IMG/VR virus record: IMGVR_UViG_3300024269_000017
DNA: 64,000 bases
Reading direction: 5' to 3' (one strand)
Source of the DNA: a virus
Lineage: Duplodnaviria > Heunggongvirae > Uroviricota > Caudoviricetes
Made by a program: the position numbers and the translations under genes. The notes below the pieces were generated by a model. That model was not told where the DNA came from. It saw nothing but the letters and a program-made list of their open reading frames with translations, and searched no databases. Positions 1 through 64,000 of this stretch are shown here, in pieces (position 1 is the stretch's first letter; every line of letters begins with the position of its first letter).

Positions 1-192
1 TTAAATTCCAACTCAACTACATCCCGCATCCCCTTATCATCTGTCATAATTAAAAAGACTTGATCAAGAATTCTCGGATTCTTATTTTTAGATACATGAA
101 ATTCAATATCAACCAAATCAGTTCCTGAAGCAAAACCTCTTGCAGGATTTAATTTGTCAAGTCTATCAAAATACATAATTGCGGCCATAGTT
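1..192 (-). CDS. hypothetical small protein (~63 aa), stop TAA at window edge
   Basis: minus-strand ATG near 190-192 preceded by GGAGGA RBS; open frame to TAA at 1-3; not in ORF track, probably because it abuts the window edge. Confidence 0.35.
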
Positions 193-263
193 GTTATCCT
201 CCTAAAATAATGGGAGAACTTTATTTGAAAGTTCTCCCACATTCTAGATTATATTAAAAATTA

Positions 264-485
264 TCAAGACTTTTTACTAGAATCTGTCCATCCAATTTCA
301 GTCCACTGATCCAACTCATCCTCTGGAATAGTGACAACTTTTTTTGTAAGTACTCCATTGGTGAGAGTTTTACCTGAATCAGCAATTAATCTCAATAAAC
401 GGACATGGTAAACGTCTTCAAGGTGAATGGGGGTGTCGAGCACCCCATTCGTACCTAAATAACGATATAAAACTGTTTTTTTCAT
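264..485 (-). CDS. hypothetical protein (73 aa)
   Basis: ORF track; AGGAGAATAGGG upstream of ATG; TGA stop. Confidence 0.5.
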   Translation of the reverse strand: MKKTVLYRYLGTNGVLDTPIHLEDVYHVRLLRLIADSGKTLTNGVLTKKVVTIPEDELDQWTEIGWTDSSKKS

Positions 486-503
486 ATCCCTATTCTCCTT
501 TTA

Positions 504-3500
504 TTAAGCTTGCATAATTTGGACAAGATTTGGATTAGCTGTAATATGAAGATCATAGTTAGTAATCCAATCATCTACATAGGAAAGAATTTCATCATAT
601 GAAGTACTGTTATTATCGTAAGTAACAACAAAACTACTTAAAGATAAATATTCTTGAGAGCTTGCACCAAACATGGCATTTGTTGACAACCAAGTTAAAG
701 CGTTTGCATTAATTGGTCTTTGAGCGGTGCCAAAATTAATAATAGACCAACCACAGTTTTGGAATGTCTTATTACCATAAGCAGCACCAAAATCTTCAAT
801 ACCATCATTGTTAGTGTCTCCAAGACTGTACTCATTATAAGGAACAGTAAGAACAACACAATCCTTATTTCGGCATGCATTTGCAAATGCACTATTGCCA
901 AAATAGCTAACATTGTTAGTATTGTCAACCACTAAATTAGTACAATTTCTGAAGCAGAAAGTTCCAATAGTAGTTAGTGAGTCAGGGAAATCAACATGAA
1001 CTAAGCTGGTTGCTTTATCAAATGCAAAATCATTAAATTTATAAATCTTACTTAAATTCTCTGCATTTTCTTGACAACCTAAGAAGAACACAGCGTACAG
1101 ATCAGTATTTTGACACATACCATTAGATACAGAGCCTGTTGCAGAAGTACCTGCAGCAATTTCTAAGATCGGCCATTCGACACCTTGTTCATCAAATACG
1201 GTAATTGGGAAACAAACTTTTCCACCAATGCCATAAGTAGGATCAAGACCAACAATAGCATAATTGCCAAGAACGGCGTCTGTTTTATAAGTAATATTTA
1301 AATACTGCTGATCAATTATATTGTCATAAACACTACTTTCCATGTAAACCGCATAGAAGTTCATGTCGCTACCTGCTAAAATACGATTTAAATCGGTGGT
1401 GTCAGTAGAAGAAGTAAGAGAAGTATGCCAACCAATAAATTTATAACAAGAAGTCAAAGCCAAAGAGGTGCTATCTCTTTGAGGAATTCTAGTAGGAGTA
1501 ATAATTGGCTTACCAGCAGGAGTTTCAATTTCTTCAAACAAAGAGCCATCATAATTATAAAAGCTCATAGTATAACCATGCACTTTATATACTGCAACAA
1601 CAGTTACGCGTCCACCATCAATAGCAGATAAGACGTGAGTATTTAATTCATTAGTTGCATAAAGTGTAACTTTATCATTATCGGTAATTACGGAATGTGC
1701 CGCTCTAAAATCAAATGTGCCATCTTCAATTGCCCAACCAACAAAGTCATAATGCAATCTAGAAGGTTCTTCTCCTTCGTAAACTACTGGGGACTCAGCA
1801 TATCCATAAGGATACTTTAACCATCCAAGTGTCTTTTGAACACCTTCTGCATTATATTCAACAAAATGAACAGAATAAGCAGGATTTACTTTGTCACCAG
1901 TAATTTCAAGATCTGGATAAAGTGCATTATAACGTTTCCACAAAGTATATTCGTCTAATGCATCTCCCTCTTCCTGATTGTTCACGTGCATACGACCAGT
2001 TAAGCCTGGAAGAATTTTAGTATTTGGTAAAAGTTCATTATAAGTTAAGAAAGAGCGGTAACGATAAGTATCAGTTTCCACAGTTGCGGTTTTATCCTCA
2101 TACATATCTAAGAAAGCTGTTACAATATCAAGATTTTTAATGACGTTTGTATCAAAAGCATCATCAAAAGTATAAATTACACCATCATTAAGTTTATTGA
2201 TCCAGCCTTCCTCATAATAACCAGTAGCTCCGTTAGGATCATGGTATACTTCGTAAGTGGTTTGATTTTTTAATTCATAATACTTTGTTGCACGATCGAA
2301 AGATGTACCAATTTCAACTAATTTATATGGAGACCATTCCACATCGGTAAAGTCACACTTTAAAATAGGTGTGGTATTTCCATCAGTAATAATGCCATTG
2401 TGTTTAGCTTCTTTTACTTTATATAAGTAATCTAACAAACGATAAGAATCAATACCCATTTTACTTCTGTCTAATACAAATGTCTCAATATTACAAGTTG
2501 TATTAGCATTAGGAGTAGTGGTATATTTATCTGTTAAATTCTTAATATATAAACCAGTTGGAGTATTATCAATGGTTGGAGCTGTTTCTACAATACCCCT
2601 TAATTCAAGAGGTTGTTTCAAAACAAAGGAGGTAATTGTTTCTGGCAAGTACAAGGTCTTTAACAAGTTACCTTCAGTAAACTCGACAGAACTTAATTGT
2701 GTACCTGTTGCCATAAAAGTATTAATTTTTTCAGCACCAGTTAATTGAAGAGAACCAGCCAACTTAGTTAAATTAGATAGGTCCATATATGTCAAAAGTC
2801 CTTTTGGACTTGTAGCAGTGATAGCCAAAGCATCAATAAATTTATCTGTGATACCATCATTGCGATAGCCATCTATCAAAGAACCAAGTGTGAAAGTACG
2901 CAAACGAATTGCTTGAGAATAGTCAATTTCATTAAGGTACTTGTCACTTAAGTTGCCAAGATCCGCGATATATTCTGGACCGCGAATATAAGCCAACTGT
3001 TGAGACAATGGAACGCCATCGTCTAAGCGGTTTTTAATAGAAGATGGTGGGTCAATAAGAACAGGATCGTCTTGACCGGCAACATAAGGCTTAGGCGTGG
3101 TAGCAGTTTCATCATATACTACAGATAGATACTGAGATAAGTATCCATGTAGATTGAATGATGCACTTGCCTGCAAACCTTCTACTAAGTTACCTTCTTC
3201 ATCTTTAGTATCATCAGAAGTACGAGCAAGGTCGTTTGCATTATAACGCAATTTAATTTGCTTCTTAATAAATTCAGGATTATAAGAACCACCTAACCAC
3301 TGAGAGTCAAGATAATTCAAACGATTGCGGAAGAATGCTTGACGATTTAAAGTTCTATCACCTTGCAAGCAGTAGAAATAACCTTCAGTTTGAGAAATAG
3401 TTCCTTCTTGATCGGTATATCCTGTAGTTGCAGGAGAGATATATTTATAATCAGCGTCAATGTTCTTCATAATTTCGCTCCACTTGTCAGAACCATTGGT

Positions 3501-6500
3501 ATTATAATGTTCATTAAGTGTATCGAGTTCAATCGCACCTTCATTGCGTAAGCCGCGATAAATTGCTAAAATTTTGTCCATCATTAATCCAGCGAAGTTG
3601 ATCCATAAAACTGAACCAGCACCAGAGAAGATGGAAGCATCTTTAAATGCATGACCTGTGTCGTCATAAATATCAGGATCTTCAGATACTAATGTTGCAT
3701 CAGTGTTGTAGTCCCAAGAAACATGTCCGGAATTGTTTACACCTAACTGAGTATCAATATCGTAGAAAATTGGGAACCAAATAAAATCACCGTTAGCATT
3801 AGACTTAGCAGTTGGACCCCATGTTGCAATCATCATATTCTTTTGACGAGAGTCATAGCACAAAAGCAATTCAGTCATAATGAAATAGATTGCACAATAA
3901 TCAAGATCAAAGTGCTCAGTAAATTCATTTCTGAACTTAGCTTTTCTATAGCGGATAGAGTCAGTATCAAATTTCTCATAAAGATCTGCGCTAAAACCTT
4001 CCCAGACCAAATTTACTTCAATAGTAAATTCATCACGAGCATAGTTTTCACTAATCTCTAATCCACAATTTGCAACTGCCTCTTGGTCACTACCTTCAGG
4101 CATTTCGTAATAGAATAATCCATCTTCATGTTTTACAAAAGTATAAGGTCCAACGTATTTCTCATAATCATGAGTCATACCATTAGCTTTATCTTCTTCA
4201 GTCAGAGTGCCATTTACAGCTACTAAGAAATCAGTAAATGTCTTAAGATTATTAACAATTACGCTATTTGCATTATCTGTTTCATTCAAAGTCTGATAAG
4301 CAGCTTGAATGGTAGGAGTAATATTTGCTTTTGTATAAGTCTGATCTGCGCCAAGAGTATAATAAGTAACACCATGCTCATATTGAGAAGATAAGGTTAA
4401 ATAATATTTGGTCGCATCTAATGCACTACCAGTGAACTTTGTGGTATCTGTGCTATGTACCCAATCCCACATTACCTTAAAATTCTTGGTATGATCTTTA
4501 ATATACTGATTTGCTACACCAATCTCATTATCTTTATAAACATCTCCGATATCCCAGTCTTCATAAGTATAACGAGGCTCGAAATGATTATAAATTTGTA
4601 GACGACCAGCATTTTCTTCAGTGTTAGGAATTAATTCGTAGAAACCATTCACATCATCGCTTTGGAATTTACCAAGACCAGACTGGTTCTGGCAGAATTC
4701 CCAACATTCGGCTAACTCGCCAAAAGTACTCTTACGAGGCGTAGTTTCTTCTCTTAGCTCTTCATCATCGCTTAATTCATCGACCTTCTGCCAAGAGGTA
4801 TGAATCTTTTCTACGGAATATGGATTATATACACGTTTTGTTGGGTCTAAATCCCATCCAAAGTCAAAGCCAAATGTATTGGTAGCACCCTTATCAAGAT
4901 TAAAATTGTACTTACCAACATACTCAATATTACCATCAATGTCTTCCCAGAATACCAAAATTGGGAATCCGAAAACAGTGGTTCTATAATCTTTGGTTTG
5001 ACCAAAATATTTCTTTAATGGATGTCTCAAGTCTGCACTCTTGTCACTGCCAGTTTGATTTGCAATAGTCTGGATCAAATTGGCAAATTGCGTATTATGT
5101 GTACTTGAACTTTCCATATAGTCAGCTTTTAAACAGAAAGTCTTCGCGGCGATACCATTACCAATATCAATTTTAGAAATCATTTTACTTTCGTCATTAT
5201 GATCTTGATACCAGTAATCTTTCTTGTTTTCGTCGCCATCCCAAGTTTCAAAGCGGAAAGGTTTGTCCCAACTTGTAATACCAGAAACTTTTTCTTGGGT
5301 CTTTAACTTATAATTACGACGTGGATAACCCTGAGAAGAAGTTCCTTGCACGTCCAATTCAACATTCTGACAATGGAAGCCTTGACTTGGTTTAGCTGGA
5401 TTCCAGAAACGAATACCAACAGCTTTCTTGTTTCCTTTTGCGTAAGGAAGTTTATTGTCAGCCGTAGCACCTACATCAGAATTTTTATAAGTTGTAATAA
5501 CCATTGTTGGGATAATATCTGCTTGACGCACTTTAGCATAATCAATTTTATTACTTTCAACAATAGAACCATTGCGATTATAACGATTATGTCTCTCATC
5601 AAGAGTTGGAGCATCACCAATCCAGTTTTGAGTAATCGCAGAATAATTTAATGCATTTGTGTAAACACGAATATTAAAAATATCAACATCACAATAATCA
5701 GAGTTAATAACAATCTTATCAACGGAAGCGCTAAAGTCATCATTAGAAGTAAATTTCATAATATTGGTCAAAACACCATTAACATATAAATAAATTAATG
5801 GAATAGTATTTGAAGTTGGAGCACCAGTTTCTGTATTATAAATCTGAGTAAATTTACCAGCTGCATCTACTACGATAGAAATTTTTACTCTTTCATCATC
5901 GGTATAACGAGCATTAACAACTTTAGTTTTAGAAAGACTGAAGAAAGCCTCTTGAGTACCAAGCATAAAACCACGATAGTTGCTAGGATTAAAATATGTT
6001 AAAAATGCTCCTTCGCCACTAGATACAGTTTTTACCTGTTCAGTTTCTGGAGTTCCATCTTCGTCGAACATTGGGTTGCCATTAGCATCAATCTTTTGTA
6101 CTGCTTTTTCAATAATTAAGCGAGAGTAATCAACAGCATTACGAACTTTAAAATCAAATTCATAAGTACGAGAAGCCGCTTTGACAGTAGACATCGCTGC
6201 TAAAGGAATTTCAACAGAAGCACCATTGCTAACTCTTAAACAAGTACCTTCAGATTCATCCTCAATCCAACCATTATTAGCCCAGTTAAAATTATTAAAT
6301 TTAATTTCTCCAAGACCAATAGTATCATCTTGAGTTTCTGCTTTGTTTGGCCATTGTTGACGTTTATTTGGGGTTTCTAGATTAGAACGTCCAAGAGCAT
6401 TCAAATATAAAACTGCACCTTTTGTAGCGTCAAGGTCCATCTTATAATTTGGAACAATGAACACTTGGAATTCTTTATAAGTTAAACCGCACTGTAAAAT

Positions 6501-7817: not shown

Positions 7818-7851
7818 AAAACGATTTTCTCCTTCCTCTCAAAAAATAAAA

Positions 7852-7880
7852 AGGGCAAAGTGCAGTGTCACTTTGCCCTG
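7852..7880 (-). terminator. rho-independent terminator after 7899-9545 gene
   Basis: GC hairpin GGGCAAAGTG...CACTTTGCCC followed on minus strand by T-run. Confidence 0.5.
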
Positions 7881-7898
7881 TGTAGTAAAATTTATAAA

Positions 7899-55915: not shown

Positions 55916-55925
55916 TAAATGAAAT

Positions 55926-56400: not shown

Positions 56401-56429
56401 TTGACATTCCTGCCCACCTATGCTATAAT
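56401..56429 (+). promoter_or_regulatory. early promoter P4
   Basis: aaaaagtttttttcaaaaacctaTTGACAttcc-N-TATAAT. Confidence 0.6.
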
Positions 56430-56486
56430 AGTCTCAGTTGGTGAGGGAAACACCGACAAGACAAAATGACAAAGGTGGTAATCACA

Positions 56487-57056
56487 ATGAATGCACTGGA
56501 ACTGATGGATCTCTACTACGACCGCATGTGCGCTTGCACTTCCACTTCTGGACGCAACAACAACTTCAAAAAGATGCTTGCTCTGTGGGAAGAAAATGAA
56601 GTTGTTCGTGCGGTTTGGACTTTTGTCAAGGATGCCTATTTCATCGTTGATCGGTTTGTCAAGGGCGTTGTTGACAAGGTAAAGTCTTTCTTTAAGCCGA
56701 CCGCAAACGTGGTTTACTCCTGCGACAAGGTAGAGGGCAATCAGCTTGTGTATCTCCTGCGGCTGCTTAATGAAGAGGGCAATCTGGTTTGGTCAAAGGT
56801 CGGCACGACCACCCGAACCATTGAAGAACGCATGAGCGAACACCTGCGCTACTATCGCAAGTATGGTATCAAAACGATCGAAGTTACTAAAGTTTGGGAT
56901 TGCGGAGAAGTTGACGCAGAAGGTTTGGAAAGTTTCCTGCGTTCCAAGTACATCCGCAAGCATCCGAACACTTTCCAGAAAAATGATCGTTTCTATCAAG
57001 TTGAGTTTGATCTGGAACAGGCTGAAAAGTGGGTTGACTTCTATCTGAACGATTGA
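56487..57056 (+). CDS. T5orf172 / GIY-YIG-like domain protein (~190 aa)
   Basis: LVYLLRLL...WSKVGTTTRTIEERMSEH...DAEGLESFLRSKY pattern resembles T5orf172 domain; GGTGG RBS 8 nt before ATG 56487 (an upstream ATG at 56466 is also in frame). Confidence 0.5.
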   Translation: MNALELMDLYYDRMCACTSTSGRNNNFKKMLALWEENEVVRAVWTFVKDAYFIVDRFVKGVVDKVKSFFKPTANVVYSCDKVEGNQLVYLLRLLNEEGNLVWSKVGTTTRTIEERMSEHLRYYRKYGIKTIEVTKVWDCGEVDAEGLESFLRSKYIRKHPNTFQKNDRFYQVEFDLEQAEKWVDFYLND

Positions 57057-57087
57057 AAAAAAAGTTTGTCAAGGGCGTAAAAACCCC

Positions 57088-57116
57088 TTGACAAACAGCC
57101 CAAGATGCTGTATAAT
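57088..57116 (+). promoter_or_regulatory. early promoter P5
   Basis: ccccTTGACAaacagcccaagatgctgTATAAT; spacer nearly identical to P11 and P15. Confidence 0.6.
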
Positions 57117-57141
57117 AGTTAATGTAAAGGAGGTCAAGAAC

Positions 57142-57546
57142 ATGGCTAAGGAACTTCAGTATCCTACCCCTGAGTGGTTGGACGCCATGGTCGATAAGAC
57201 TGGTTGCTCACTGGAAGAAGCCGAAATGGCATGGTGGGACAAGCAGATCGACAAGGGCAACCCTACCCCATGGGACTTGCCACCCGAGCAAGAGAAGGAA
57301 GCACGCAAGGCGAACCGACCCAAGGCTCACAAGGTGGTTGACCCTGCAGGCAAGACCCGAACCCGAGAACGCAAGCCCAACGAGGACAAGCGACTATTGG
57401 TGGACTGCCTGCACGACGCATTGAAGGACTTTGACAACTGCGAGGTTGTCAACCCCGAGCGTCAAGTGGACTTTGTGCTGAACGGCGTTTCCTATTCGGT
57501 TACGCTGACCGCCCACCGACCCCCCAAGGACAAGGGGAAGGGCTGA
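57142..57546 (+). CDS. hypothetical protein (134 aa)
   Basis: AAAGGAGGTCAAGAAC-ATG; TGA stop. Confidence 0.55.
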   Translation: MAKELQYPTPEWLDAMVDKTGCSLEEAEMAWWDKQIDKGNPTPWDLPPEQEKEARKANRPKAHKVVDPAGKTRTRERKPNEDKRLLVDCLHDALKDFDNCEVVNPERQVDFVLNGVSYSVTLTAHRPPKDKGKG

Positions 57547-57597
57547 TACCCTTCCCCAAGCCCCGAAAAAAAACTTGAAAAAAGTTTCAAAAAGGGC

Positions 57598-57626
57598 TTG
57601 ACAAACCGACCGACCTGTGGTATACT
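57598..57626 (+). promoter_or_regulatory. early promoter P6
   Basis: gcTTGACAaaccgaccgacctgtggTATACT with A-tract UP element. Confidence 0.6.
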
Positions 57627-57697
57627 TAAGATGTTCCAAGGGAAGGAACAAAACAAAACGACAGCGCCAAGAGCGCGGAAAGAAAGAGGTAATCGCT

Positions 57698-58066
57698 ATG
57701 ACTACTATCAATGTGAAGAATGAGAAGCTGACCTACGTGACCGCCCTGACCTACGCCATTGAGAACGGCAACCTGCCCACCGAGATCGCGGAAAAGCTGA
57801 TTGCCCTGCGTACTCAGCAGGAGAAGCGTAACAGCGGTGAGAAGAAGCCGACCAAGGTTCAGGAAGCCAACGTTGGCATCAAGCAGGTTATCCTGACTGC
57901 CCTTGAGGGTCAGGAAGCCAAGACCGTAAGCGAGATTCAGACCCTTGCTCCCGAGCTGGGCGAGCTGAGCAATCAGAAGGTTGCAAGCCTTGTCCGTCAG
58001 CTTGTGGAAGAGGGCAAGCTGACCCGAATCGAGGAGAAGCGCAAGGCGTATTTCCGCCTTGCCTGA
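57698..58066 (+). CDS. winged-helix DNA-binding protein, paralog 1 (122 aa)
   Basis: AGAGGTAATCGCT-ATG; C-terminal SNQKVASLVRQLVEEGKLTRIEEKRKAYF shared with 61254 and 63165 genes. Confidence 0.6.
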   Translation: MTTINVKNEKLTYVTALTYAIENGNLPTEIAEKLIALRTQQEKRNSGEKKPTKVQEANVGIKQVILTALEGQEAKTVSEIQTLAPELGELSNQKVASLVRQLVEEGKLTRIEEKRKAYFRLA

Positions 58067-58113
58067 CCCTCGCGGGGTGGTGAAAAAAACTTTCACCACC
58101 CCGAAAAAACCCC

Positions 58114-58142
58114 TTGACAACCTGCCTATCCTGTGCTATAAT
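58114..58142 (+). promoter_or_regulatory. early promoter P7
   Basis: ccccTTGACAacctgcctatcctgtgcTATAAT. Confidence 0.6.
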
Positions 58143-58187
58143 AGTATCAACGAAAGGGCAAGAGCCCGAACAACGAGGAGGATCCCC

Positions 58188-58445
58188 ATGAAGAACACCA
58201 TCGCTGCCACCCTGATCGCCAACTACGGTTTCGAAGCCCAGTCCAACTGCCTGTTCACTGGCAAGGGCTCTTGGCTGGCCTCTCACGAGACCGTCAAGGT
58301 CACCTTCCACGGTGACATGGTCACCATCGACCACTACCGCTTCTTCTGGGATGGCGGTGATGTGGAGTGGGAACGCTCCACGGTGGTCACCTGCCACCTC
58401 TCCCGACTGTGGGAGAACCTCCCCGAGTGGGTGCTCAGAGCCTGA
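58188..58445 (+). CDS. hypothetical protein (85 aa)
   Basis: GAGGAGGATCCCC-ATG; TGA stop. Confidence 0.55.
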   Translation: MKNTIAATLIANYGFEAQSNCLFTGKGSWLASHETVKVTFHGDMVTIDHYRFFWDGGDVEWERSTVVTCHLSRLWENLPEWVLRA

Positions 58446-58461
58446 GCCCCACTCTTTTTTT
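58425..58461 (+). terminator. rho-independent terminator
   Basis: GAGTGGG...CCCACTC stem with TTTTTTT; followed by a second GC hairpin. Confidence 0.5.
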
Positions 58462-58563
58462 ATTCGCCGGCGCGTGGGCGGGCGCTGCGCTTGCCCACTC
58501 GCCGAATTTCCGCGAGGAGCACCAGCCAGCAAAAAATAATTTGAAAAACTTGCAAAAAAGGTA

Positions 58564-58592
58564 TTGACAAATCATCCCGAATCTGCTATAAT
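58564..58592 (+). promoter_or_regulatory. early promoter P8
   Basis: gtaTTGACAaatcatcccgaatctgcTATAAT; near-identical to P18. Confidence 0.6.
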
Positions 58593-58642
58593 TAAACCAT
58601 CGAAAGGGAACACAGAGTCCCAACAGAAAGGAAGTTACTACT

Positions 58643-58894
58643 ATGATGACTGCCAAAGAAGCTAAGACCATGACCACCAACTACCTGACCGCCGAAGCTG
58701 ACAAGCACCTGCAGAAGATTGAAGACACCATTCAGATCTATGCCAGCAAGGGCAACACCTCCATGTATTACAGCAATGGTCTCAGCGGTGCCGACCCTCG
58801 CATCCAGTCCAAGGTATACAACACTATGGTTGAAGCAGGTTACAAGGTTCGTTGGTGTGAATCCAGCCTGCACATCAGCTGGGCAGATGCCTAA
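58643..58894 (+). CDS. hypothetical protein (83 aa)
   Basis: ORF track; aaaggaagttactact-ATG leader; TAA stop. Confidence 0.6.
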   Translation: MMTAKEAKTMTTNYLTAEADKHLQKIEDTIQIYASKGNTSMYYSNGLSGADPRIQSKVYNTMVEAGYKVRWCESSLHISWADA

Positions 58895-58913
58895 AAAAAG
58901 TTGCTCAGAGGGG

Positions 58914-58942
58914 TTGACAAATCCCTCTGAGCATGGTATAAT
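58914..58942 (+). promoter_or_regulatory. early promoter P9 with inverted repeat flanking -35
   Basis: GCTCAGAGGGG-TTGACAA-ATCCCCTCTGAGC then catgg-TATAAT. Confidence 0.6.
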
Positions 58943-58979
58943 AAGTACATCAAAAGGAACAAGAAAGGAAGTAACTACA

Positions 58980-59318
58980 ATGACTAAGAAGATTTCTCTG
59001 AATGACTGGACCTACATCGGCAAGTACAATCCTGCGGCCAAGTGGCTTCGTCCCCTCTGCTCCTACTCTCTGACCGAAGCTGGTGCCTATTCTGCAGATG
59101 GCAACCCCGACTATCGCCGCGATTGCAAGATTAGCTGGCCTGTGTATCTGCTCCTGTTCCTGCCTGTGCATCTACTTCAGTTGCTGGTGTGCCTGTGGGA
59201 TGGCGGCTTGAAAGAATTTGAAATTGCAAGTCGCCACATTGGGCATGATTACATCACTGCACATGGCGACAACAGCGGACGCTATCAGATGGCAAAAGAA
59301 ATTTGGGAAAAGGCTTGA
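58980..59318 (+). CDS. protein with C-terminal transmembrane segment (112 aa)
   Basis: aaaggaagtaactaca-ATG; WPVYLLLFLPVHLLQLLVCLW hydrophobic stretch; its TGA lies inside the -35 of P10. Confidence 0.55.
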   Translation: MTKKISLNDWTYIGKYNPAAKWLRPLCSYSLTEAGAYSADGNPDYRRDCKISWPVYLLLFLPVHLLQLLVCLWDGGLKEFEIASRHIGHDYITAHGDNSGRYQMAKEIWEKA

Positions 59319-59343
59319 CAAAGCCTTTCCCCTGTGGTATAAT
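59315..59343 (+). promoter_or_regulatory. early promoter P10
   Basis: gcTTGACAaagcctttcccctgtggTATAAT. Confidence 0.55.
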
Positions 59344-59371
59344 AAATGTATCAAATGAAGGAGTGATAAAC

Positions 59372-59545
59372 ATGGGTATCATGATCGGTGCTATTGTTGC
59401 AAGTCAGACCGCTATGAGAGTGGCGGCAATGAATGCCATGAAAAAAAATCTGGAAAATCAGAAAAAAGCTGTTGACAAACAGCCCAAAGTGTGCTATACT
59501 AATAATGTCGAAAGGGACAACAGAAAGGAAGGTAAACAAAAATGA
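59372..59545 (+). CDS. 57-aa peptide whose 3' half is embedded in promoter P11
   Basis: GAAGGAGTGATAAAC-ATG strong RBS; hydrophobic N-terminus; TGA overlaps the ATG of 59542 gene. Confidence 0.4.
   Translation: MGIMIGAIVASQTAMRVAAMNAMKKNLENQKKAVDKQPKVCYTNNVERDNRKEGKQK
59472..59500 (+). promoter_or_regulatory. early promoter P11
   Basis: gTTGACAaacagcccaaagtgtgcTATACT then aataatgtcgaaagggacaac. Confidence 0.6.
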
Positions 59546-59856
59546 TGAAGATCGAAATGACCAAACACGCTATGGTAGACCGCATTGACCGCTGTGTGTA
59601 CATTGCACAGAAGATTGGCTTCGGTGACAAGATTGTGTGCGAAGGTTTCCGCAGAGACAAGGGCACTCGGCAGTGCCTGTCCGAAACTGGTGTGCTGATT
59701 GTCAAGATGCCGGAAAGCGAAACCATGGTGACTGCTTACATTCCCACTCTTGAACAGGCTGGCATGATTTACAAGTCCGCAGGCTTGCACATGCCGAACT
59801 GGATGGCACAGAAAATCAAGAAGAATCAGAAGTATGCAAAGGGCTGTCCTGTGTGA
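59542..59856 (+). CDS. hypothetical protein (104 aa)
   Basis: ORF track; AAAGGAAGGTAAACAAAA-ATG. Confidence 0.6.
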   Translation: MMKIEMTKHAMVDRIDRCVYIAQKIGFGDKIVCEGFRRDKGTRQCLSETGVLIVKMPESETMVTAYIPTLEQAGMIYKSAGLHMPNWMAQKIKKNQKYAKGCPV

Positions 59857-59891
59857 CAGCCCTTTGCAAGAAAAAAATTTTCAAAAAGGTA

Positions 59892-59920
59892 TTGACAACC
59901 TGCCGAACCTATGGTATAAT
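59892..59920 (+). promoter_or_regulatory. early promoter P12
   Basis: aaaaattttcaaaaaggtaTTGACAacctgccgaacctatggTATAAT. Confidence 0.6.
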
Positions 59921-59952
59921 AAGTACAACGAAAGACGAAAGGAAGTAACACA

Positions 59953-60426
59953 ATGAACACTCTGCTTCTCACCTTCATCCTGCTGAACATCGCCAATGTT
60001 ATCATTCAGACCGTCAAGAGCATTGCAACCATCAAATGCGGAAAAGGGGTCGCCGCGATTGTTAACGCTGTTGCCTTCGGACTCTACACTGTGGTCACTG
60101 TCTACATGATGTGCGATTTGCCTCTTGCCACCAAGGCGCTGATTGTCGCAGGCTGTAACCTTGTGGGTGTGTATGTGGTCAAGTATTTTGAAGAAAAGGC
60201 AAGAAAAGACAAACTCTGGAAAGTCGAAGTCACCATTCCTGCCGAACAAGCAGAACAGATGATTGAAGATTGCAAATACTATGGATTCACTTACAACTAT
60301 GTGAACATCGAAAAGTATTTCTTGTTTAACTTCTATTGTCCCACTCAGCAGGACAGTCTGAATGTTAAGAAACTGTTACAGAGCTATGATGCAAAATACT
60401 TTGTGACTGAAAGCAAAAATTTGTGA
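59953..60426 (+). CDS. membrane protein, 2 predicted TM helices plus soluble C-terminal domain (157 aa)
   Basis: ORF track; aaaggaagtaacaca-ATG; hydrophobic N-terminal ~80 aa. Confidence 0.6.
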   Translation: MNTLLLTFILLNIANVIIQTVKSIATIKCGKGVAAIVNAVAFGLYTVVTVYMMCDLPLATKALIVAGCNLVGVYVVKYFEEKARKDKLWKVEVTIPAEQAEQMIEDCKYYGFTYNYVNIEKYFLFNFYCPTQQDSLNVKKLLQSYDAKYFVTESKNL

Positions 60427-60434
60427 GAAAGGGG

Positions 60435-60463
60435 TTGACAACCCCTCTCACATGTGGTATAAT
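60435..60463 (+). promoter_or_regulatory. early promoter P13 with inverted repeat flanking -35
   Basis: GTGAGAAAGGGG-TTGACAA-CCCCTCTCAC then atgtgg-TATAAT. Confidence 0.6.
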
Positions 60464-60493
60464 AAGTACATCAAAAGGAAAGAGGTAATGAAC

Positions 60494-60766
60494 ATGAGAG
60501 CAACTGGTATTGTAAGAAGAGTCGATGAACTGGGTCGCATTGTTATCCCCAAGGAAATCCGCAGGAACCTGAACATCAAAGAGGGCGATCCCCTTGAGAT
60601 GTATCTGGACAAGGAATACGGGCTTGTGATGAAGCCCTACCATGAAGAGCATCTGAGCTTTGACCGCCTGCAGTCTGAGTGGGAAAGCCTGAGCACCGCA
60701 AAGCGGCAGGAACTGATCTGCGAAATGGTGAACCACCTCGATGACCCCATCCGCTGTGAAGAGTGA
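60494..60766 (+). CDS. AbrB/MazE/SpoVT-family (swapped-hairpin) transcriptional regulator (~90 aa)
   Basis: N-terminus MRATGIVRRVDELGRIVIPKEIRRNLNIKEGDPLE matches AbrB-N domain pattern; AAAGAGGTAATGAAC-ATG. Confidence 0.6.
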   Translation: MRATGIVRRVDELGRIVIPKEIRRNLNIKEGDPLEMYLDKEYGLVMKPYHEEHLSFDRLQSEWESLSTAKRQELICEMVNHLDDPIRCEE

Positions 60767-60786
60767 CCGCAAGGTCACTCTTTTTT
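60761..60786 (+). terminator. rho-independent terminator (first of tandem pair)
   Basis: GAGTGACCgcaaGGTCACTC + TTTTTT. Confidence 0.7.
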
Positions 60787-60793
60787 CGCCCGC

Positions 60794-60820
60794 GCGCCCA
60801 CGAGCGTGGGCGCCGGTTTT
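60794..60820 (+). terminator. second tandem terminator
   Basis: GCGCCCACgagcGTGGGCGC cgg TTTT. Confidence 0.6.
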
Positions 60821-60912
60821 CCCGCGTATCCTTCCATTATACCATTTTTCGAGCAATTTGTCAATAGGCAAACTGCACAAACTTTTTCCCGAAACTTTGT
60901 GCAATCTGTCAA

Positions 60913-60941
60913 TAGACATTTGGGGTCTGATACTGTATAAT
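60913..60941 (+). promoter_or_regulatory. variant promoter (TAGACA-17-TATAAT) with conserved upstream TTTGTGCAATCTGTCAA element and palindrome
   Basis: caaTAGACAtttggggtctgatactgTATAATagataatgtcaggaggg; same architecture recurs at 62818. Confidence 0.5.
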
Positions 60942-61022
60942 AGATAATGTCAGGAGGGCACTGAGGTGATGCCGAGTGAAGCTGGTCGACAAAACTTCTT
61001 CAAAAAAAGTTTTGAAAAACCC

Positions 61023-61051
61023 TTGACAAAGCCGCCAAGATGTGATATACT
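61023..61051 (+). promoter_or_regulatory. early promoter P14b (drives ~90-nt leader RNA)
   Basis: cccTTGACAaagccgccaagatgtgaTATACT. Confidence 0.55.
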
Positions 61052-61143
61052 GATAGTGTCAAGAGGGCAAGGAACTGCAAGAGGAACCCTTCGGCGCTGA
61101 AGCGCACAGGATAAAAACTCAAAAAAAAAGTTTCAAAAACCCC

Positions 61144-61172
61144 TTGACAAACACCGCAAGGTGTGGTACAAT
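61144..61172 (+). promoter_or_regulatory. early promoter P14c
   Basis: ccccTTGACAaacaccgcaaggtgtggTACAAT. Confidence 0.55.
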
Positions 61173-61253
61173 AAGGATGTCGAAAGGGCAAGGCGCCAGC
61201 CCCACTCGACAGTCACTAACACCAATCGACAAGAAAGAAAGAGGTAATGAATC

Positions 61254-61607
61254 ATGGAAAAGATGACTTATGTGAAGGCTCTGGAAGTTGCTCTGAACTG
61301 CGAAGCTCTGTCTGCCGAAGTGCGTGAGAAGCTGTCTGCTCTGCGTGACCAGCAGGTCAAGCGTAACTCTGCGGAGAAGAAGCCCACCAAGACCCAGCAG
61401 GCGAATGAGGGCGTGAAGTCCCATGTGCTGGAAGTGCTGGCTTCCTGCGCCCAGCCTGTGACTGTGTCTGAACTGATGCAGGCTGATGAAGAGCTGTCCC
61501 AGCTCTCCAATCAGAAGGTCGCTTCGCTGGTTCGCCAGCTGGTGGAAGCTGGCAAGGTTCAGCGACTGGAAGAGAAGCGCAAGGCTTACTTCACTCTGGT
61601 GAAGTGA
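61254..61607 (+). CDS. winged-helix DNA-binding protein, paralog 2 (117 aa)
   Basis: ORF track; AGAGGTAATGAATC-ATG; shares SNQKVASLVRQLVEAGK...EEKRKAYF with paralogs. Confidence 0.65.
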   Translation: MEKMTYVKALEVALNCEALSAEVREKLSALRDQQVKRNSAEKKPTKTQQANEGVKSHVLEVLASCAQPVTVSELMQADEELSQLSNQKVASLVRQLVEAGKVQRLEEKRKAYFTLVK

Positions 61608-61667
61608 CCTTGCGGGGCAGGGGTAAAACCCTGCCCCATCTTCCCGAAAAAAAGTTTCAAAAAGGTA

Positions 61668-61696
61668 TTGACAAACAGCCCAACATCTGCTATAAT
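61668..61696 (+). promoter_or_regulatory. early promoter P15
   Basis: aaaaagtttcaaaaaggtaTTGACAaacagcccaacatctgcTATAAT. Confidence 0.6.
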
Positions 61697-61740
61697 AGAT
61701 AATGTCGAAAGGCAATAGAACAAGAAAGAGGTAATGCAAA

Positions 61741-62397
61741 ATGAATCGCCACTTCTACATTCTGATGGATACTGAAACTGCCAACGGTCTGGATTGCCCC
61801 ATCAACTACAATACCGCATGGTCTGTAATTGACCAGCACGGCAACACCTACGAAAACTTCAATTTCATCAACCGCGACATTTTCTTTGACCGTCCCGAAC
61901 TCATGCAGTCCGCATACTACGCCCACAAGATTCCGCAGTATCTTGAACAGATTGAACGCGGCGAAATCAAGGTTGCAACGTGGTACGAAATCCGCAAGGC
62001 GTTCCGCGACTGTTGCGAAAAGTACAACATCAAGGCAGTTATCGCCCACAATGCCCGATTCGACTATCGCTCCTGCACGATGACCCAGCGTTACGAAACC
62101 TGCTCCAAGTATCGCTACTTCTTCCCGAAGGGCGTTGAAATTTGGGACACGCTGGCAATGGCTCGTGATGTGGTCGCCCCGATGCCCACTTACCGCAAGT
62201 GGTGCGAAACCAACGGTTTCACCTTGAAGAACGGACAGCCCCGACTGACCGCCGAAATCCTGTTCCGCTTCATCTCCAAGGACATTGACTTTGTGGAAGA
62301 ACACAAGGCAATGGAAGATGTGAACATCGAAAAGGAAATCTTTTGGTACTGCATCCGCAAGCACAAGGCAATGCGTCGAAAGGCTTTCAAGGACTGA
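61741..62397 (+). CDS. DnaQ-like DEDDh 3'-5' exonuclease (218 aa)
   Basis: YILMDTETANG (Exo I), AHNARFDYR (Exo II), EEHKAMEDV (Exo III H-x4-D) motif pattern; AGAGGTAATGCAAA-ATG. Confidence 0.6.
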   Translation: MNRHFYILMDTETANGLDCPINYNTAWSVIDQHGNTYENFNFINRDIFFDRPELMQSAYYAHKIPQYLEQIERGEIKVATWYEIRKAFRDCCEKYNIKAVIAHNARFDYRSCTMTQRYETCSKYRYFFPKGVEIWDTLAMARDVVAPMPTYRKWCETNGFTLKNGQPRLTAEILFRFISKDIDFVEEHKAMEDVNIEKEIFWYCIRKHKAMRRKAFKD

Positions 62398-62404
62398 AAA
62401 AGTC

Positions 62405-62433
62405 CTTGACAGCCGCCCCAAAGTGTGATATAA
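62405..62433 (+). promoter_or_regulatory. early promoter P16
   Basis: gtccTTGACAgccgccccaaagtgtgaTATAAT. Confidence 0.6.
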
Positions 62434-62465
62434 TAAGTACATCAAAAGGAAAGAGGTAATTGACC

Positions 62466-62702
62466 ATGACTCAGTTTCAGTATGAAGTAAATGTTTACGA
62501 AGAAGACCACGTCCTGTCCTGCAAGACCAACAATCCCCGCACCGCCTGCCAGTTTATGCTGGATCATGCCGACTGCTATCTTGATGTCATCAACGGTTTT
62601 ACTGGTGAAGTGCTCGCTGTGATGAACCATGAGAATGCTTACTGTCAAGAGGATTTCGGGCTGATGCTTCTCGGCTATATGACCGAAACAATTTGGGGCT
62701 GA
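62466..62702 (+). CDS. hypothetical protein (78 aa)
   Basis: AAAGAGGTAATTGACC-ATG; TGA stop. Confidence 0.55.
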   Translation: MTQFQYEVNVYEEDHVLSCKTNNPRTACQFMLDHADCYLDVINGFTGEVLAVMNHENAYCQEDFGLMLLGYMTETIWG

Positions 62703-62728
62703 CCCTTCGGGGTTGGCTCTTTTCTTTT
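62697..62728 (+). terminator. rho-independent terminator (first of tandem pair)
   Basis: GGCTGACCCttcgGGGTTGGCT + CTTTTCTTTT. Confidence 0.6.
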
Positions 62729-62731
62729 GAG

Positions 62732-62763
62732 CCGGTCGTGCGCGGGCCACACGACCGGTTTTT
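62732..62763 (+). terminator. second tandem terminator
   Basis: CCGGTCGTGcgcgggccaCACGACCGG + TTTTT. Confidence 0.7.
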
Positions 62764-62817
62764 CCGCAATGGGCAGATCTACCAAGAAATTCGCTGAAAA
62801 TTTGTGCATTTTGCCAA

Positions 62818-62846
62818 TAGACATTTTATCCCGAAAGTGGTATACT
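62818..62846 (+). promoter_or_regulatory. variant promoter (TAGACA-17-TATACT), second copy
   Basis: tttgtgcattttgccaaTAGACAttttatcccgaaagtggTATACTaataatgtcaggagggg. Confidence 0.5.
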
Positions 62847-62938
62847 AATAATGTCAGGAGGGGAGGCCAAGAAACCGAGAGGCGGCCGACTCTCAGGAAG
62901 TAGAGGAAGAAAACTTGAAAAAAAGTTTCCGAAACCTC

Positions 62939-62967
62939 TTGACAAACCACTGACCCTGTGGTATAAT
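62939..62967 (+). promoter_or_regulatory. early promoter P17b (drives ~95-nt structured leader RNA)
   Basis: ctcTTGACAaaccactgaccctgtggTATAAT. Confidence 0.55.
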
Positions 62968-63090
62968 AAGGGTGTCAGGTGAGGGAAGCAACTGACAGTC
63001 GCTTAGCCAAGGTAGCCTGCGGAGTGGGTGCGCAACACTCCATGGTTAGACCCTGTGCAAGCGAAGCGAAAAAAAAGTTTGCGAAACCCC

Positions 63091-63119
63091 TTGACAAACA
63101 ACTGAATAGGTGCTATAAT
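63091..63119 (+). promoter_or_regulatory. early promoter P17c
   Basis: ccccTTGACAaacaactgaataggtgcTATAAT. Confidence 0.6.
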
Positions 63120-63164
63120 AAGAGTGTCCTAAGGGACAAGACAAAAAGAAAGAGGTAATGAATC

Positions 63165-63572
63165 ATGATGAAGTTCACTAAGAAGGTTGCTCTGGAAGTC
63201 GCTATCAATGCTATCGAGAACTCCACCCTGCCCAACTGGTCTTTCACTGAGGGCGAGGAAACCCTGACCATCTCCAAAGCGGAAGCCATCGAGAAGCTCC
63301 AGAAGATGATTGAGCAGTTGGAGGCTAAGTCCAACGCTCCCAAGAAGCCCACTAAGGTGCAGGAAGCCAACGAGGGTGTCAAGGACATCATCAAGGCTGT
63401 GCTGGAAGGTCAGTCCCCCATGACTGTCTCCGAAATCATGACCCACTCTGCGGAACTGAGTGCCCTGTCCAACCAGAAGGTCGCCTCTCTGGTGCGCCAG
63501 ATGGTCGAGGCTGGCGTGCTGGTTCGCACTGAGGAAAAGCGCAAGGCTTTCTTCGCCCTCGCTCAGGGCTGA
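63165..63572 (+). CDS. winged-helix DNA-binding protein, paralog 3 (135 aa)
   Basis: ORF track; AGAGGTAATGAATC-ATG; shares SNQKVASLVRQMVEAG...EEKRKAFF. Confidence 0.65.
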   Translation: MMKFTKKVALEVAINAIENSTLPNWSFTEGEETLTISKAEAIEKLQKMIEQLEAKSNAPKKPTKVQEANEGVKDIIKAVLEGQSPMTVSEIMTHSAELSALSNQKVASLVRQMVEAGVLVRTEEKRKAFFALAQG

Positions 63573-63576
63573 GCCT

Positions 63577-63601
63577 GAGACCCCGAAAGGGGTCTCTTTT
63601 T
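63577..63601 (+). terminator. rho-independent terminator (first of tandem pair)
   Basis: GAGACCCCgaaaGGGGTCTC + TTTTT. Confidence 0.7.
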
Positions 63602-63607
63602 CTTGGG

Positions 63608-63638
63608 CTGCTCGCGGACGGGCGCCGCGAGCAGTTTT
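63608..63638 (+). terminator. second tandem terminator
   Basis: CTGCTCGCGGacgggcgCCGCGAGCAG + TTTT. Confidence 0.6.
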
Positions 63639-63693
63639 CCGCGATACACTAGACCCACCGAAAAATTTTCTTGAAAAATCGGCATTTTAGGGG

Positions 63694-63722
63694 TTGACAG
63701 ATTATCCCGAATCTGATATAAT
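63694..63722 (+). promoter_or_regulatory. early promoter P18 (near-duplicate of P8)
   Basis: ggggTTGACAgattatcccgaatctgaTATAAT. Confidence 0.6.
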
Positions 63723-63749
63723 AGAACCATCGAAAGGAGCTGATCTGAA

Positions 63750-63890
63750 ATGTTCACCTGTCCTGCACTCTGTATCCTTGGTCTGGTTCTCTCTATGTGG
63801 GGATTCATCTGGGGTATCTTCTTCCAGGAATTCCTGTGGCTGTGTGTAGCTGGTTTTGCGCTGGGCTGGATGTTTTCTAAAGATTGTTGA
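63750..63890 (+). CDS. 46-aa hydrophobic membrane peptide
   Basis: AAAGGAGCTGATCTGAA-ATG; two hydrophobic helices; TGA stop. Confidence 0.45.
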   Translation: MFTCPALCILGLVLSMWGFIWGIFFQEFLWLCVAGFALGWMFSKDC

Positions 63891-63899
63891 AATTAGGGG

Positions 63900-63928
63900 T
63901 TGACAAACTGCCCCAACTGTGTTATAAT
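63900..63928 (+). promoter_or_regulatory. early promoter P19
   Basis: ggggTTGACAaactgccccaactgtgtTATAAT. Confidence 0.6.
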
Positions 63929-63953
63929 AATAATGTCGAAAGGAGCTGATAGC

Positions 63954-64000
63954 ATGGAGTTCAAGGAAGCTATCAAGGCTTACGCTAAAATGATGGGCGT
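63954..64000 (+). CDS. 5' end of next early gene (truncated by window)
   Basis: AAAGGAGCTGATAGC-ATG; MEFKEAIKAYAKMMG... Confidence 0.45.
   Translation, partial: MEFKEAIKAYAKMMG

What the first reader, a model, noticed from the sequence alone, without database searches (positions are those of the whole stretch)
1..64000. No gene in the window terminates with TAG; late genes stop with TAA, early genes almost only with TGA
All 20 or so early plus-strand genes end in TGA (a few in TAA). All checked late genes end in TAA, with one TGA (264-485). TAG never sits at an RBS-defined gene end. This independent observation supports TAG being a sense codon in this system. It also shows the early and late halves use different preferred terminators.
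Basis: seen in the sequence. Interest (0 to 1): 0.5.

Follow-up and report, generated by a model that had tools for sequence, protein, structure and literature searches.

The report
Amber-recoded phage: TAA late, TGA early
The window is part of a ~168-kb gut or rumen phage that reads the stop codon TAG as glutamine in its virion genes, so no gene ends in TAG; the TAA-versus-TGA split between its two halves tracks a very large difference in codon composition between them.

Summary
I curated 54 genes. The 26 plus-strand "early" genes end 21 TGA, 5 TAA, 0 TAG. The early/late contrast is strong (Fisher p=2.5e-7).

TAG is a sense codon. There are 104 in-frame TAGs in 13 late genes, including a 3791-codon ORF with 42. 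In relatives these columns behave like glutamine. Only 1 of 104 is followed by a ribosome-binding site and start codon. Standard-code relatives end 13% of early genes in TAG; recoded relatives end 1.8%.

Related phages carry large tRNA clusters that include a tRNA with anticodon CUA. I could not reach that region in this phage's own genome.

The TAA/TGA split follows composition. Third-position GC is 0.24 in late genes and 0.58 in early genes, while positions 1 and 2 are about equal. Early terminators (81% TGA) match the out-of-frame triplet share (77%). Late genes prefer TAA beyond composition (p=1e-5).

TAG-to-Gln recoding in phages is already described, so this is a new member of a known kind. 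The extreme codon split between the two arms and the array of perfect promoters are the more unusual features.

The parts
264..52294 (-). Late (structural) arm: 28 genes, GC3 0.24. Terminators are 25 TAA and 3 TGA, none TAG. There are 104 in-frame TAG codons in 13 genes.
24880..36255 (-). Giant ORF of 3791 codons with 42 in-frame TAGs, ending in TAA. Probably the tape-measure protein, judged from position only.
   Evidence: The standard-code fragments all lie in one frame.
18766..24759 (-). ORF of 1997 codons with 18 in-frame TAGs, ending in TAA. The last TAG is 13 codons before the stop.
48302..50044 (-). Large terminase gene with 2 in-frame TAGs, ending in TAA.
46312..47919 (-). Portal gene with 7 in-frame TAGs. 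Its last TAG (46333-46335) lies 7 codons before the TAA, which abuts the next gene's ribosome-binding site. This is the only ambiguous gene end in the window.
   Evidence: Relatives align through this position.
36938..38215 (-). Late gene with 8 in-frame TAGs that ends in TGA.
41789..42427 (-). Late gene ending in TGA. The TGA is forced by an ATGA overlap with the start of 41502-41792.
   Evidence: and direct reading of the sequence
264..485 (-). Last small late gene, ending in TGA followed directly by an in-frame TAA.
42431..46296 (-). Four TAG-free genes next to the portal gene, with higher GC3 (0.37-0.43) and CAG-rich Gln usage. They are putative head proteins, including a prohead-protease-like N-terminus.
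504..7817 (-). TAG-free late gene of 2437 codons with 78 Gln codons. P(no TAG)=7e-8 at the TAG share of the TAG-containing genes. Public annotation gives it an LRR_5 domain.
52419..63890 (+). Early arm: 26 small genes, GC3 0.58, no in-frame TAG among 111 Gln codons. Terminators are 21 TGA and 5 TAA.
54181..63959 (+). About 20 copies of an ~80-nt promoter module: an A-rich upstream tract, TTGACA, 17 nt, TG-n-TATAAT, and a conserved leader. The region holds 17 perfect 12/12 consensus promoters, 15 of them on the plus strand.
53149..53925 (+). HNH homing-endonuclease gene with low GC3 (0.27) inside the early arm, ending in TGA.

Best explanation
The window holds two divergent arms of a ~168-kb tailed phage, probably of gut or rumen Firmicutes.

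TAG. In many virion genes TAG is translated as glutamine (shown). The most likely decoder is a phage-encoded tRNA with anticodon CUA made from a large tRNA cluster elsewhere in the genome. This is inferred: such tRNAs are present in relatives but were not seen in this genome. Because TAG is read through, it cannot end a gene reliably, and it has been lost from gene ends throughout the genome. The immediate-early genes contain no TAG at all, so they read the same under either code.

TAA versus TGA. Among the two remaining stops, the choice follows the synonymous-site composition of each arm.
- The late arm is AT-rich at third positions (GC3 0.24) and uses TAA. Selection for TAA adds to this, going well beyond composition. 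TAA is the strongest terminator, and in 7 of 25 cases TAA is directly followed by G-rich Shine-Dalgarno sequence of the next gene (exactly TAAGGAG in 5).
- The immediate-early arm is GC-rich at third positions (GC3 0.58) and uses CTG, CAG, AAG and C-ending codons. It uses TGA at just the rate its composition predicts.

Why the arms differ (inferred). Early genes are written in host-optimal codons for translation by the unmodified host. Late genes use A-ending codons, and TAG, that the phage's own tRNAs supply.
For: TAG is sense and means Gln:
- ORF lengths with TAG read as sense.
- 104 in-frame TAGs, with only 1 near a ribosome-binding site and start codon.
- TAG columns in relatives are 37% Q, and the Gln model is best by more than 900 log-likelihood units.

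TAG terminators were purged by recoding:
- Early genes ending in TAG: 21 of 157 in standard-code relatives against 5 of 276 in recoded relatives, p=2e-6.
- Late genes of standard-code relatives end in TAG 11 times in 129.

Early genes are code-neutral: 0 TAG among 111 Gln-type codons, p=1.5e-8.

Composition:
- GC1/GC2/GC3 are 0.48/0.36/0.24 in late genes and 0.52/0.37/0.58 in early genes.
- Out-of-frame TGA share is 0.77 in early genes against a terminator share of 0.81 (p=0.42).
- In late genes the shares are 0.50 and 0.11 (p=1.2e-5).

The early label: 17 perfect consensus promoters in the 12 kb scanned.

The arms belong to one genome: the same junction occurs in many independent contigs, and early GC3 exceeds late GC3 in all 39 relatives.

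Suppressor tRNA in relatives:
- L264 18890-18979, L269 4920-5012 (in a cluster of 26 tRNAs), and L222.
- The same tRNA pattern occurs in 94 metagenome contigs. Two of them have exactly the lengths of the contigs behind TerL relatives L007 and L052, which I take to be the same contigs.

tRNA match to late codons: all 11 U34 tRNAs in L269 pair with A-ending codons that are more used in late than in early genes.
Against: - No tRNA lies in the window or in about 18 kb of this phage's own flanks. The suppressor is shown only in relatives with about 80% nucleotide identity or less.
- The window's early TGA share (82%) is higher than in its relatives (about 38-50%). A gene-GC regression fitted on relatives predicts 7.3 TGA against 18 observed, p=1e-5. 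Whole-gene GC therefore does not explain it; only the local triplet composition does.
- Across relatives, early GC3 correlates only weakly with early TGA share (rho=0.23, p=0.15).
- An unrestricted test of cognate codons against phage tRNAs was not significant (p=0.59). The 11-of-11 result for U34 tRNAs is post hoc.
- The host is unknown, so "host-optimal" is untested.
- "Early" and "late" are inferred from promoters and gene content, not from expression data.
Confidence: 0.75

Rival explanations
1. The split is tied to release factors. Early genes are selected to end in TGA, which only RF2 reads. Their termination would then be independent of RF1, which competes with the amber suppressor and might be inhibited or out-titrated by the phage.
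For: Some TAG-recoded Lak and Agate phages encode RF2 (bioRxiv 10.1101/2021.08.26.457843, read). The window's early TGA share exceeds what gene GC predicts from relatives.
Against: The early TGA share equals the out-of-frame triplet share. Late genes, which are translated while the suppressor is active, use TAA and not TGA. No gene carrying a release-factor Pfam domain was called in the flanking and related loci I fetched. Close relatives with similar early GC3 have only about 50% TGA.
Confidence: 0.1
2. The GC3-rich, TGA-ending early block reflects a different history, such as cassettes repeatedly acquired from GC-richer phages or hosts, rather than translational selection. Stop usage is simply inherited with that DNA.
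For: Early gene content is hypervariable even among close relatives. The region is built of repeated promoter and leader cassettes. It contains a homing endonuclease.
Against: GC1 and GC2 are the same in both arms and only GC3 differs. The codon pattern (C-ending two-fold codons, CTG, AAG, CAG) is what translational selection typically produces. Early GC3 exceeds late GC3 in all 39 relatives despite different gene content.
Confidence: 0.15
3. TAG terminators are absent by chance or because of general TAG depletion in an AT-rich phage, without recoding.
For: Low-GC phages deplete TAG and TGA stops. For the early half alone, zero TAG has p=0.11 against composition.
Against: There are 104 in-frame TAGs in conserved genes. 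TAG aligns with Gln. Standard-code relatives do use TAG stops. TAG makes up 16% of out-of-frame stop triplets in late genes.
Confidence: 0.01
4. The two halves come from different genomes joined by misassembly.
For: There is an abrupt GC step from 0.35 to 0.49 near 52-54 kb.
Against: The same junction and GC step recur in dozens of independent contigs from different samples. Two ~168-kb ENA contigs (167,964 and 168,127 bp) carry the window's left-end genes identically, and the window maps inside the first at 39,973-103,972. The ribosome-binding-site style is shared by both arms.
Confidence: 0.01

Closest known systems
TAG-to-Gln recoded phages (genetic code 15): Borges et al. (bioRxiv 10.1101/2021.08.26.457843); Ivanova 2014 and Peters 2022, cited from my own knowledge
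   Same: In-frame TAG is concentrated in structural genes, while early genes read the same under either code. Relatives carry a suppressor tRNA(CUA). Standard-code and recoded members coexist in one clade. Stops are TAA-dominated in the AT-rich part.
   Different: Here the head-gene block and several large virion genes are TAG-free. The early arm has a third-position GC 34 points higher and ends mostly in TGA. I did not find a TAA/TGA partition between early and late genes mentioned in the passages I read.
phAss-1 / proposed Phassvirus group (PMC10607447; GenBank OQ749652, 'Caudoviricetes code 15 clade')
   Same: A gut phage with TAG recoding in terminase, portal, tape-measure and tail genes, and a large tRNA cluster with tRNA-Sup-CTA. 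The proteins are homologous: TerL 43.5% and the putative capsid protein 52% identical.
   Different: There is no nucleotide-level similarity. The genome is ~168 kb rather than 136 kb. The suppressor tRNA in this family has a long variable arm and is not the phAss-1 tRNA.
SPO1-type host-takeover / immediate-early modules of large Firmicutes phages (my own knowledge)
   Same: A block of many small genes, each with a near-perfect sigma-A-type promoter and a strong ribosome-binding site, next to the structural arm.
   Different: No sequence homology was tested or found. The GC3 shift and the link to TGA have not, to my knowledge, been described for SPO1.
General rules of bacterial stop-codon usage (TAA falls and TGA rises with GC; TAA favoured in highly expressed genes; my own knowledge) and early/late codon-usage differences in phages (Mioduser et al. 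2017, PMC5683454, cited in PMC12482277; Sf14 early GC3 39% vs late 32%)
   Same: The direction of both effects matches: the GC3-rich arm uses TGA, and the AT3-rich, highly expressed arm uses TAA.
   Different: The size of the effect differs. GC3 is 0.58 against 0.24 within one genome, compared with a few points in Sf14.

Membership tests
TAG-to-Gln (code 15) recoded phage | In-frame TAG in conserved genes; reading TAG as sense restores full-length ORFs | tested here: met
   ORFs of 3791, 1997, 1002 and 899 codons appear only with TAG as sense. There are 104 in-frame TAGs in 13 genes.
TAG-to-Gln (code 15) recoded phage | TAG positions correspond to Gln in homologues | tested here: met
   Q is the commonest aligned residue (492 of 1319). 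The Gln model is best by more than 900 log-likelihood units.
TAG-to-Gln (code 15) recoded phage | Suppressor tRNA with anticodon CUA encoded by the phage | tested here: inconclusive
   None lies in the window or in about 18 kb of its own flanks. It is present in relatives L264, L269 and L222 and in 94 metagenome contigs. The rest of this genome could not be fetched.
TAG-to-Gln (code 15) recoded phage | Recoding confined to late or structural genes; early genes compatible with the standard code | tested here: met
   0 TAG among 111 Gln codons in early genes, against a 15% TAG share in late genes.
TAG-to-Gln (code 15) recoded phage | TAG not used as a terminator | tested here: met
   0 of 54 curated genes. 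One ambiguous portal end.
Phassvirus (phAss-1 genus) | Genus-level nucleotide identity and synteny with phAss-1 | tested here: not met
   No megablast match. TerL is only 43.5% identical.
Agate clade of Borges et al. | Placement in the terminase phylogeny or vContact cluster with Agate reference genomes | not testable with these tools
Only the general features (Firmicutes-type large siphovirus, mixed codes in the clade) resemble it.
Immediate-early / host-takeover module | Cluster of small genes each preceded by a strong host-type promoter | tested here: met
   17 perfect TTGACA-17-TATAAT sites in the 12 kb scanned; 49 promoter-like sites in all against 12.9±4.5 in shuffles. The ~80-nt promoter module occurs about 20 times. 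Timing of expression was not tested.

The most novel reading that the evidence does not exclude
The phage may run two translation regimes. Immediate-early genes would be written in host-optimal, GC3-rich codons, with TGA stops that only RF2 reads and no TAG. Virion genes would be written in a private dialect of A-ending codons plus TAG=Gln that depends on the phage's own 20-26 tRNAs, with TAA stops. On this reading, amber recoding is one visible part of a genome-wide codon partition that gates late translation on phage tRNA supply, and the TGA/TAA split is functionally tied to it rather than a by-product of composition.
Probability: 0.25. Interest if true: 0.55.

Novelty: new member of a known kind. 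Interest (0 to 1): 0.33.

Why it matters
Practical point: this family must be annotated with TAG as sense, or its largest genes fragment. Gene ends can be trusted at TAA and TGA only.

Biological point: the family contains recoded and standard-code members side by side, which gives a natural experiment. TAG terminators are at 8-13% in standard-code members and close to zero in recoded ones. That supports the view that recoding removes a codon from the terminator set across the whole genome, including in genes that never use it as sense.

The extreme early/late codon split (GC3 0.58 against 0.24), together with phage tRNA clusters, makes a broader idea testable: that phage tRNAs, suppressor included, define a late-only translation regime.

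Tried and rejected
- Megablast of 24 kb against GenBank phages found no match.
- Walking towards the tRNA cluster: L006 upstream held only a lone tRNA-Asn. One step with an L262 protein found no IMG/VR relatives. I never reached the tRNA region of the window's own contig. The family suppressor pattern did not hit the JGI contigs that carry this phage.
- Host assignment through genome contigs gave MAG bins of inconsistent taxonomy (Bacteroidales, Treponema, Lachnospiraceae, Oscillospiraceae and others). I take these to be mis-binned phage contigs, so there is no host call.
- Gene GC proved a weak predictor of TAA versus TGA in relatives (logistic slope 2.1) and does not explain the window's early TGA share. 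I replaced it with out-of-frame triplet composition.
- An unrestricted Watson-Crick cognate-codon test of phage tRNAs against late codon preference was not significant (p=0.59 for L269, p=0.94 for L264). It is confounded by G34 tRNAs that read both C- and U-ending codons.
- Antisense ORFs ending in TAG in the early arm (for example 55508-56026 and 61690-62445, minus strand) were rejected as genes. They are not kept open in relatives, whereas the plus-strand ORFs are, and public gene calls omit them.
- Pfam gave no annotation for the putative head genes.
- Rfam found nothing in the early arm.
Full report
**What the window is.** Composition and ORF maps show two arms. Positions 1 to about 52,300 are coding on the minus strand at about 35% GC. 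Positions from about 52,300 to 64,000 are coding on the plus strand at about 49% GC. ARAGORN finds no tRNA in the window.

Proteins identify a tailed phage. The large terminase is 48302-50044. The portal is 46312-47919 (phrog_2739). A protein with a prohead-protease-like N-terminus is 44887-46296. The terminase is distantly related to those of Enterococcus, Geobacillus and SPbeta-like phages, and to phAss-1, which GenBank files under 'Caudoviricetes code 15 clade' (PMC10607447). There is no nucleotide-level match to GenBank phages.

Exact-protein look-ups place the window at positions 39,973-103,972 of a 167,964-bp ENA contig. They also find the same phage in many other samples. Ribosome-binding sites are strong Shine-Dalgarno sites in both arms, which suggests a Firmicutes-type host. 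MAG bins holding relatives have inconsistent taxonomy, so I make no host call.

**TAG is a sense codon, and it means Gln.** Treating TAG as sense raises the largest ORFs to 3791, 2445, 2005 and 1007 codons (stop-to-stop stretches). Treating TGA or TAA as sense gives no comparable gain. The standard-code fragments of 24880-36255 all lie in one frame.

In total, 104 in-frame TAGs lie in 13 of the 28 late genes. Opposite the window's TAGs, relatives with at most 85% identity have Q in 492 of 1319 cases. The next most common residue is K, at 206. A model in which TAG behaves like Gln beats every other residue by more than 900 log-likelihood units (per-site counts).

**Stop-codon table.** Late arm, 28 genes:
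- 25 end in TAA.
- 3 end in TGA: 264-485, 36938-38215 and 41789-42427. The last is an ATGA overlap with the next gene's start.
- None ends in TAG.

Early arm, 26 genes:
- 21 end in TGA.
- 5 end in TAA: 52826-53149, 54013-54234, 54282-54560, 58643-58894 and 62979-63158.
- None ends in TAG.

Public gene calls made independently on the same phage reproduce 20 of the early genes, with 18 TGA and 2 TAA. Plus-strand early ORFs stay open in diverged relatives, and antisense ORFs do not.

That is the portal's last TAG at 46333-46335, 7 codons before the TAA that abuts the next gene's ribosome-binding site. At control Gln codons the rate is 21 of 590. Relatives align through that portal position.

**Statistics.** The early/late contrast in TAA against TGA gives Fisher p=2.5e-7.

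Against out-of-frame triplets within the genes:
- Late genes have a 0.50 TGA share out of frame but 3 of 28 at terminators (p=1.2e-5). TAA is therefore truly preferred.
- Early genes have a 0.77 TGA share out of frame and 21 of 26 at terminators (p=0.42). Composition suffices.

Zero TAG terminators has p=0.008 for late genes and p=0.11 for early genes against out-of-frame frequencies.

The comparative test is stronger. Among 39 non-redundant relatives with TerL at least 71% identical, 13 use the standard code and 26 are recoded. TAG ends 21 of 157 early genes and 11 of 129 late genes in the standard-code set. It ends only 5 of 276 early genes in the recoded set, even though TAG was allowed as a stop when I called those genes. 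Fisher p=2e-6.

The five exceptions look like real genes. Each has a TAA backup a few codons downstream, 4-5 codons in three of them. TAG avoidance at early gene ends is therefore strong but not absolute in the family.

**Why TAA late and TGA early.**
- GC at codon positions 1, 2 and 3 is 0.48, 0.36 and 0.24 in late genes. In early genes it is 0.52, 0.37 and 0.58. Only synonymous sites differ.
- Codon choice flips between the arms. Leu CTG is 0.48 early and 0.02 late. Leu TTA is 0.07 and 0.48. Gln CAG is 0.76 and 0.22. Lys AAG is 0.69 and 0.37. C-ending two-fold codons are favoured early.
- The GC3-rich, TGA-ending block runs from about 54.2 kb to about 66 kb in window-equivalent coordinates. 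Beyond it, plus-strand genes drop to GC3 0.2-0.5 with mixed TAA and TGA.
- Every relative has early GC3 above late GC3, with differences of 0.05-0.34. The window and its nearest relatives are at the top of that range. The split is therefore a lineage trait and not a chimera.
- The window's early TGA share (0.82) is nonetheless the highest seen. It exceeds what gene GC predicts from relatives: 7.3 expected against 18 observed.
- Across relatives, early GC3 correlates only weakly with TGA share.

I conclude that local oligonucleotide composition explains the early TGA usage within this genome. A residual functional preference is not excluded.

In the late arm, 7 of 25 TAA stops are directly followed by the G-rich Shine-Dalgarno sequence of the next gene, and 5 of them read exactly TAAGGAG. 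This may add to the TAA preference; that is my inference.

**The "early" label.** The 52-64 kb region holds 17 perfect TTGACA-17-TATAAT promoters, 15 of them on the plus strand and most with an extended -10 TG. In all, 49 promoter-like sites were found against 12.9±4.5 in shuffles. They belong to an ~80-nt repeated module with an A-rich upstream tract and a conserved leader. Early gene content is hypervariable among relatives. Expression timing was not measured.

**The decoder.** No tRNA lies in the window or in the roughly 18 kb of this phage's own flanks that I could fetch. Walking along related contigs found large tRNA clusters on the early-arm strand that contain a tRNA with anticodon CUA:
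- L222.
- L264 at 18890-18979. This lineage is about 80% identical in nucleotides to the window phage's flank.
- L269 at 4920-5012, in a cluster of 26 tRNAs and in the same position just downstream of a glycosyltransferase gene.

The three tRNAs are homologous. They share a long variable arm and what looks like an A1·C72 mismatch. Their shared pattern occurs in 94 metagenome contigs. Two of these have exactly the lengths of the contigs behind the recoded TerL relatives L007 and L052, and I take them to be the same contigs.

The amino-acid identity of this tRNA cannot be read from its sequence. Gln is inferred from the protein alignments.

All 11 U34 tRNAs in L269 pair with A-ending codons that are more used in late than in early genes. 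No phage tRNA matches CTG, CAG, AAG, CCC, GTG or CGC, which early genes favour. This restricted comparison is post hoc. The unrestricted test was not significant.

**Comparison with what is known.** TAG-to-Gln recoding in phages is established: late genes recoded, early genes standard-compatible, suppressor tRNAs, occasional phage RF2, and depletion of TAG and TGA stops in AT-rich relatives (bioRxiv 10.1101/2021.08.26.457843; PMC10607447). Early/late codon-usage differences and late-gene reliance on phage tRNAs are also described, at much smaller amplitude (PMC12482277).

The finding is therefore a correct reading of a known phenomenon in a new, uncharacterised phage lineage. Three features are less usual:
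- The 34-point GC3 gap between the arms.
- The near-exclusive TGA ends of the immediate-early block.
- TAG-free head genes and several other TAG-free large virion genes.

**Verdict.** The most likely mechanism is read-through of TAG by a suppressor tRNA, which removes TAG from the terminator set across the genome. TAA or TGA is then chosen largely by arm-specific synonymous composition, with added selection for TAA in late genes. Interest is modest.

Noticed in passing
window 54200-64000, continuing to about 66 kb in L082: The immediate-early block has GC3 0.55-0.85, against 0.16-0.43 in the late genes of the same genome, while GC1 and GC2 are equal. Codon choice flips (CTG/TTA, CAG/CAA, AAG/AAA). 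The split recurs in all 39 relatives, with early-minus-late GC3 of 0.05-0.34.
   Followed up: partly
window 54181-63959: The region holds 17 perfect TTGACA-17-TATAAT promoters, 15 on the plus strand and mostly with an extended -10. They sit in an ~80-nt module present in about 20 copies, made of an AAAAAAAGTTTCAAAAA-like upstream tract and a TGTCGAAAGGG leader.
   Followed up: partly
window 56060-56355, minus strand: A perfect minus-strand promoter (56355-56327) and a terminator-like hairpin (56088-56067) bracket about 260 nt of GC-rich sequence with no convincing ORF. There is no Rfam hit, the fold z-score is +0.59, and the sequence is about 81% conserved over 160 nt in L002. Its function is unknown.
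   Followed up: partly
window 60836-60864, minus strand: A second perfect minus-strand promoter lies inside the early arm, pointing into the gap between 60766 and 60966. Its target was not identified.
   Followed up: no
window ~58446-58520, 60767-60840, 62703-62780, 63573-63650: GC-rich hairpin-like elements of the form ...GCGCGGGC...GCCGGTTTTTCCGC recur just after several early-gene terminators.
   Followed up: no
window 504-12152, 38845-39777, 42431-46296: Several late genes are completely TAG-free. One is a 2437-codon gene with 78 Gln codons (p=7e-8). The putative head genes have the highest late GC3 (0.37-0.43) and use CAG almost exclusively for Gln. This may reflect avoidance of suppression-dependent codons in the most highly expressed virion genes.
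   Followed up: partly
L264 18890-18979; L269 4920-5012; L222 20280-20369: The family's tRNA(CUA) has an unusual long variable arm (90-93 nt in total) and what looks like an A1·C72 mismatch. Its anticodon arm resembles the neighbouring tRNA-Trp(CCA). It sits just downstream of a Glyco_transf_8 gene in both L264 and L269.
   Followed up: partly
L002 7306-7623, L004 5595-5906, L018 1447-1773 (minus strand in each locus): A few early genes in recoded relatives end in TAG with a TAA 4-5 codons downstream, which looks like a tolerated TAG stop with a backup.
   Followed up: partly
window 57698-58066, 61254-61607, 63165-63572: Three paralogous early genes share 60-75% nucleotide identity over about 100-nt stretches. 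Two of them end in near-identical hairpins (GCTCAG..GCCTGAGC) that contain the TGA stop.
   Followed up: no
window 53149-53925: An HNH homing-endonuclease gene with low GC3 (0.27) is embedded in the early arm. Homologues occur in many copies across the related loci.
   Followed up: no
window 52312-52340, minus strand: A near-consensus promoter (TTGACT-17-TATAAT with TG) lies upstream of the first gene of the "late" arm (51224-52294, which contains 2 TAGs). The terminase-proximal genes may therefore be transcribed by host polymerase and gated only at translation.
   Followed up: no
L237-L261 (genome contigs): Relatives of this phage sit in MAG bins labelled Bacteroidales, Treponema, Tenericutes, Gastranaerophilales, Lachnospiraceae and others. 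These are probably mis-binned phage contigs.
   Followed up: no
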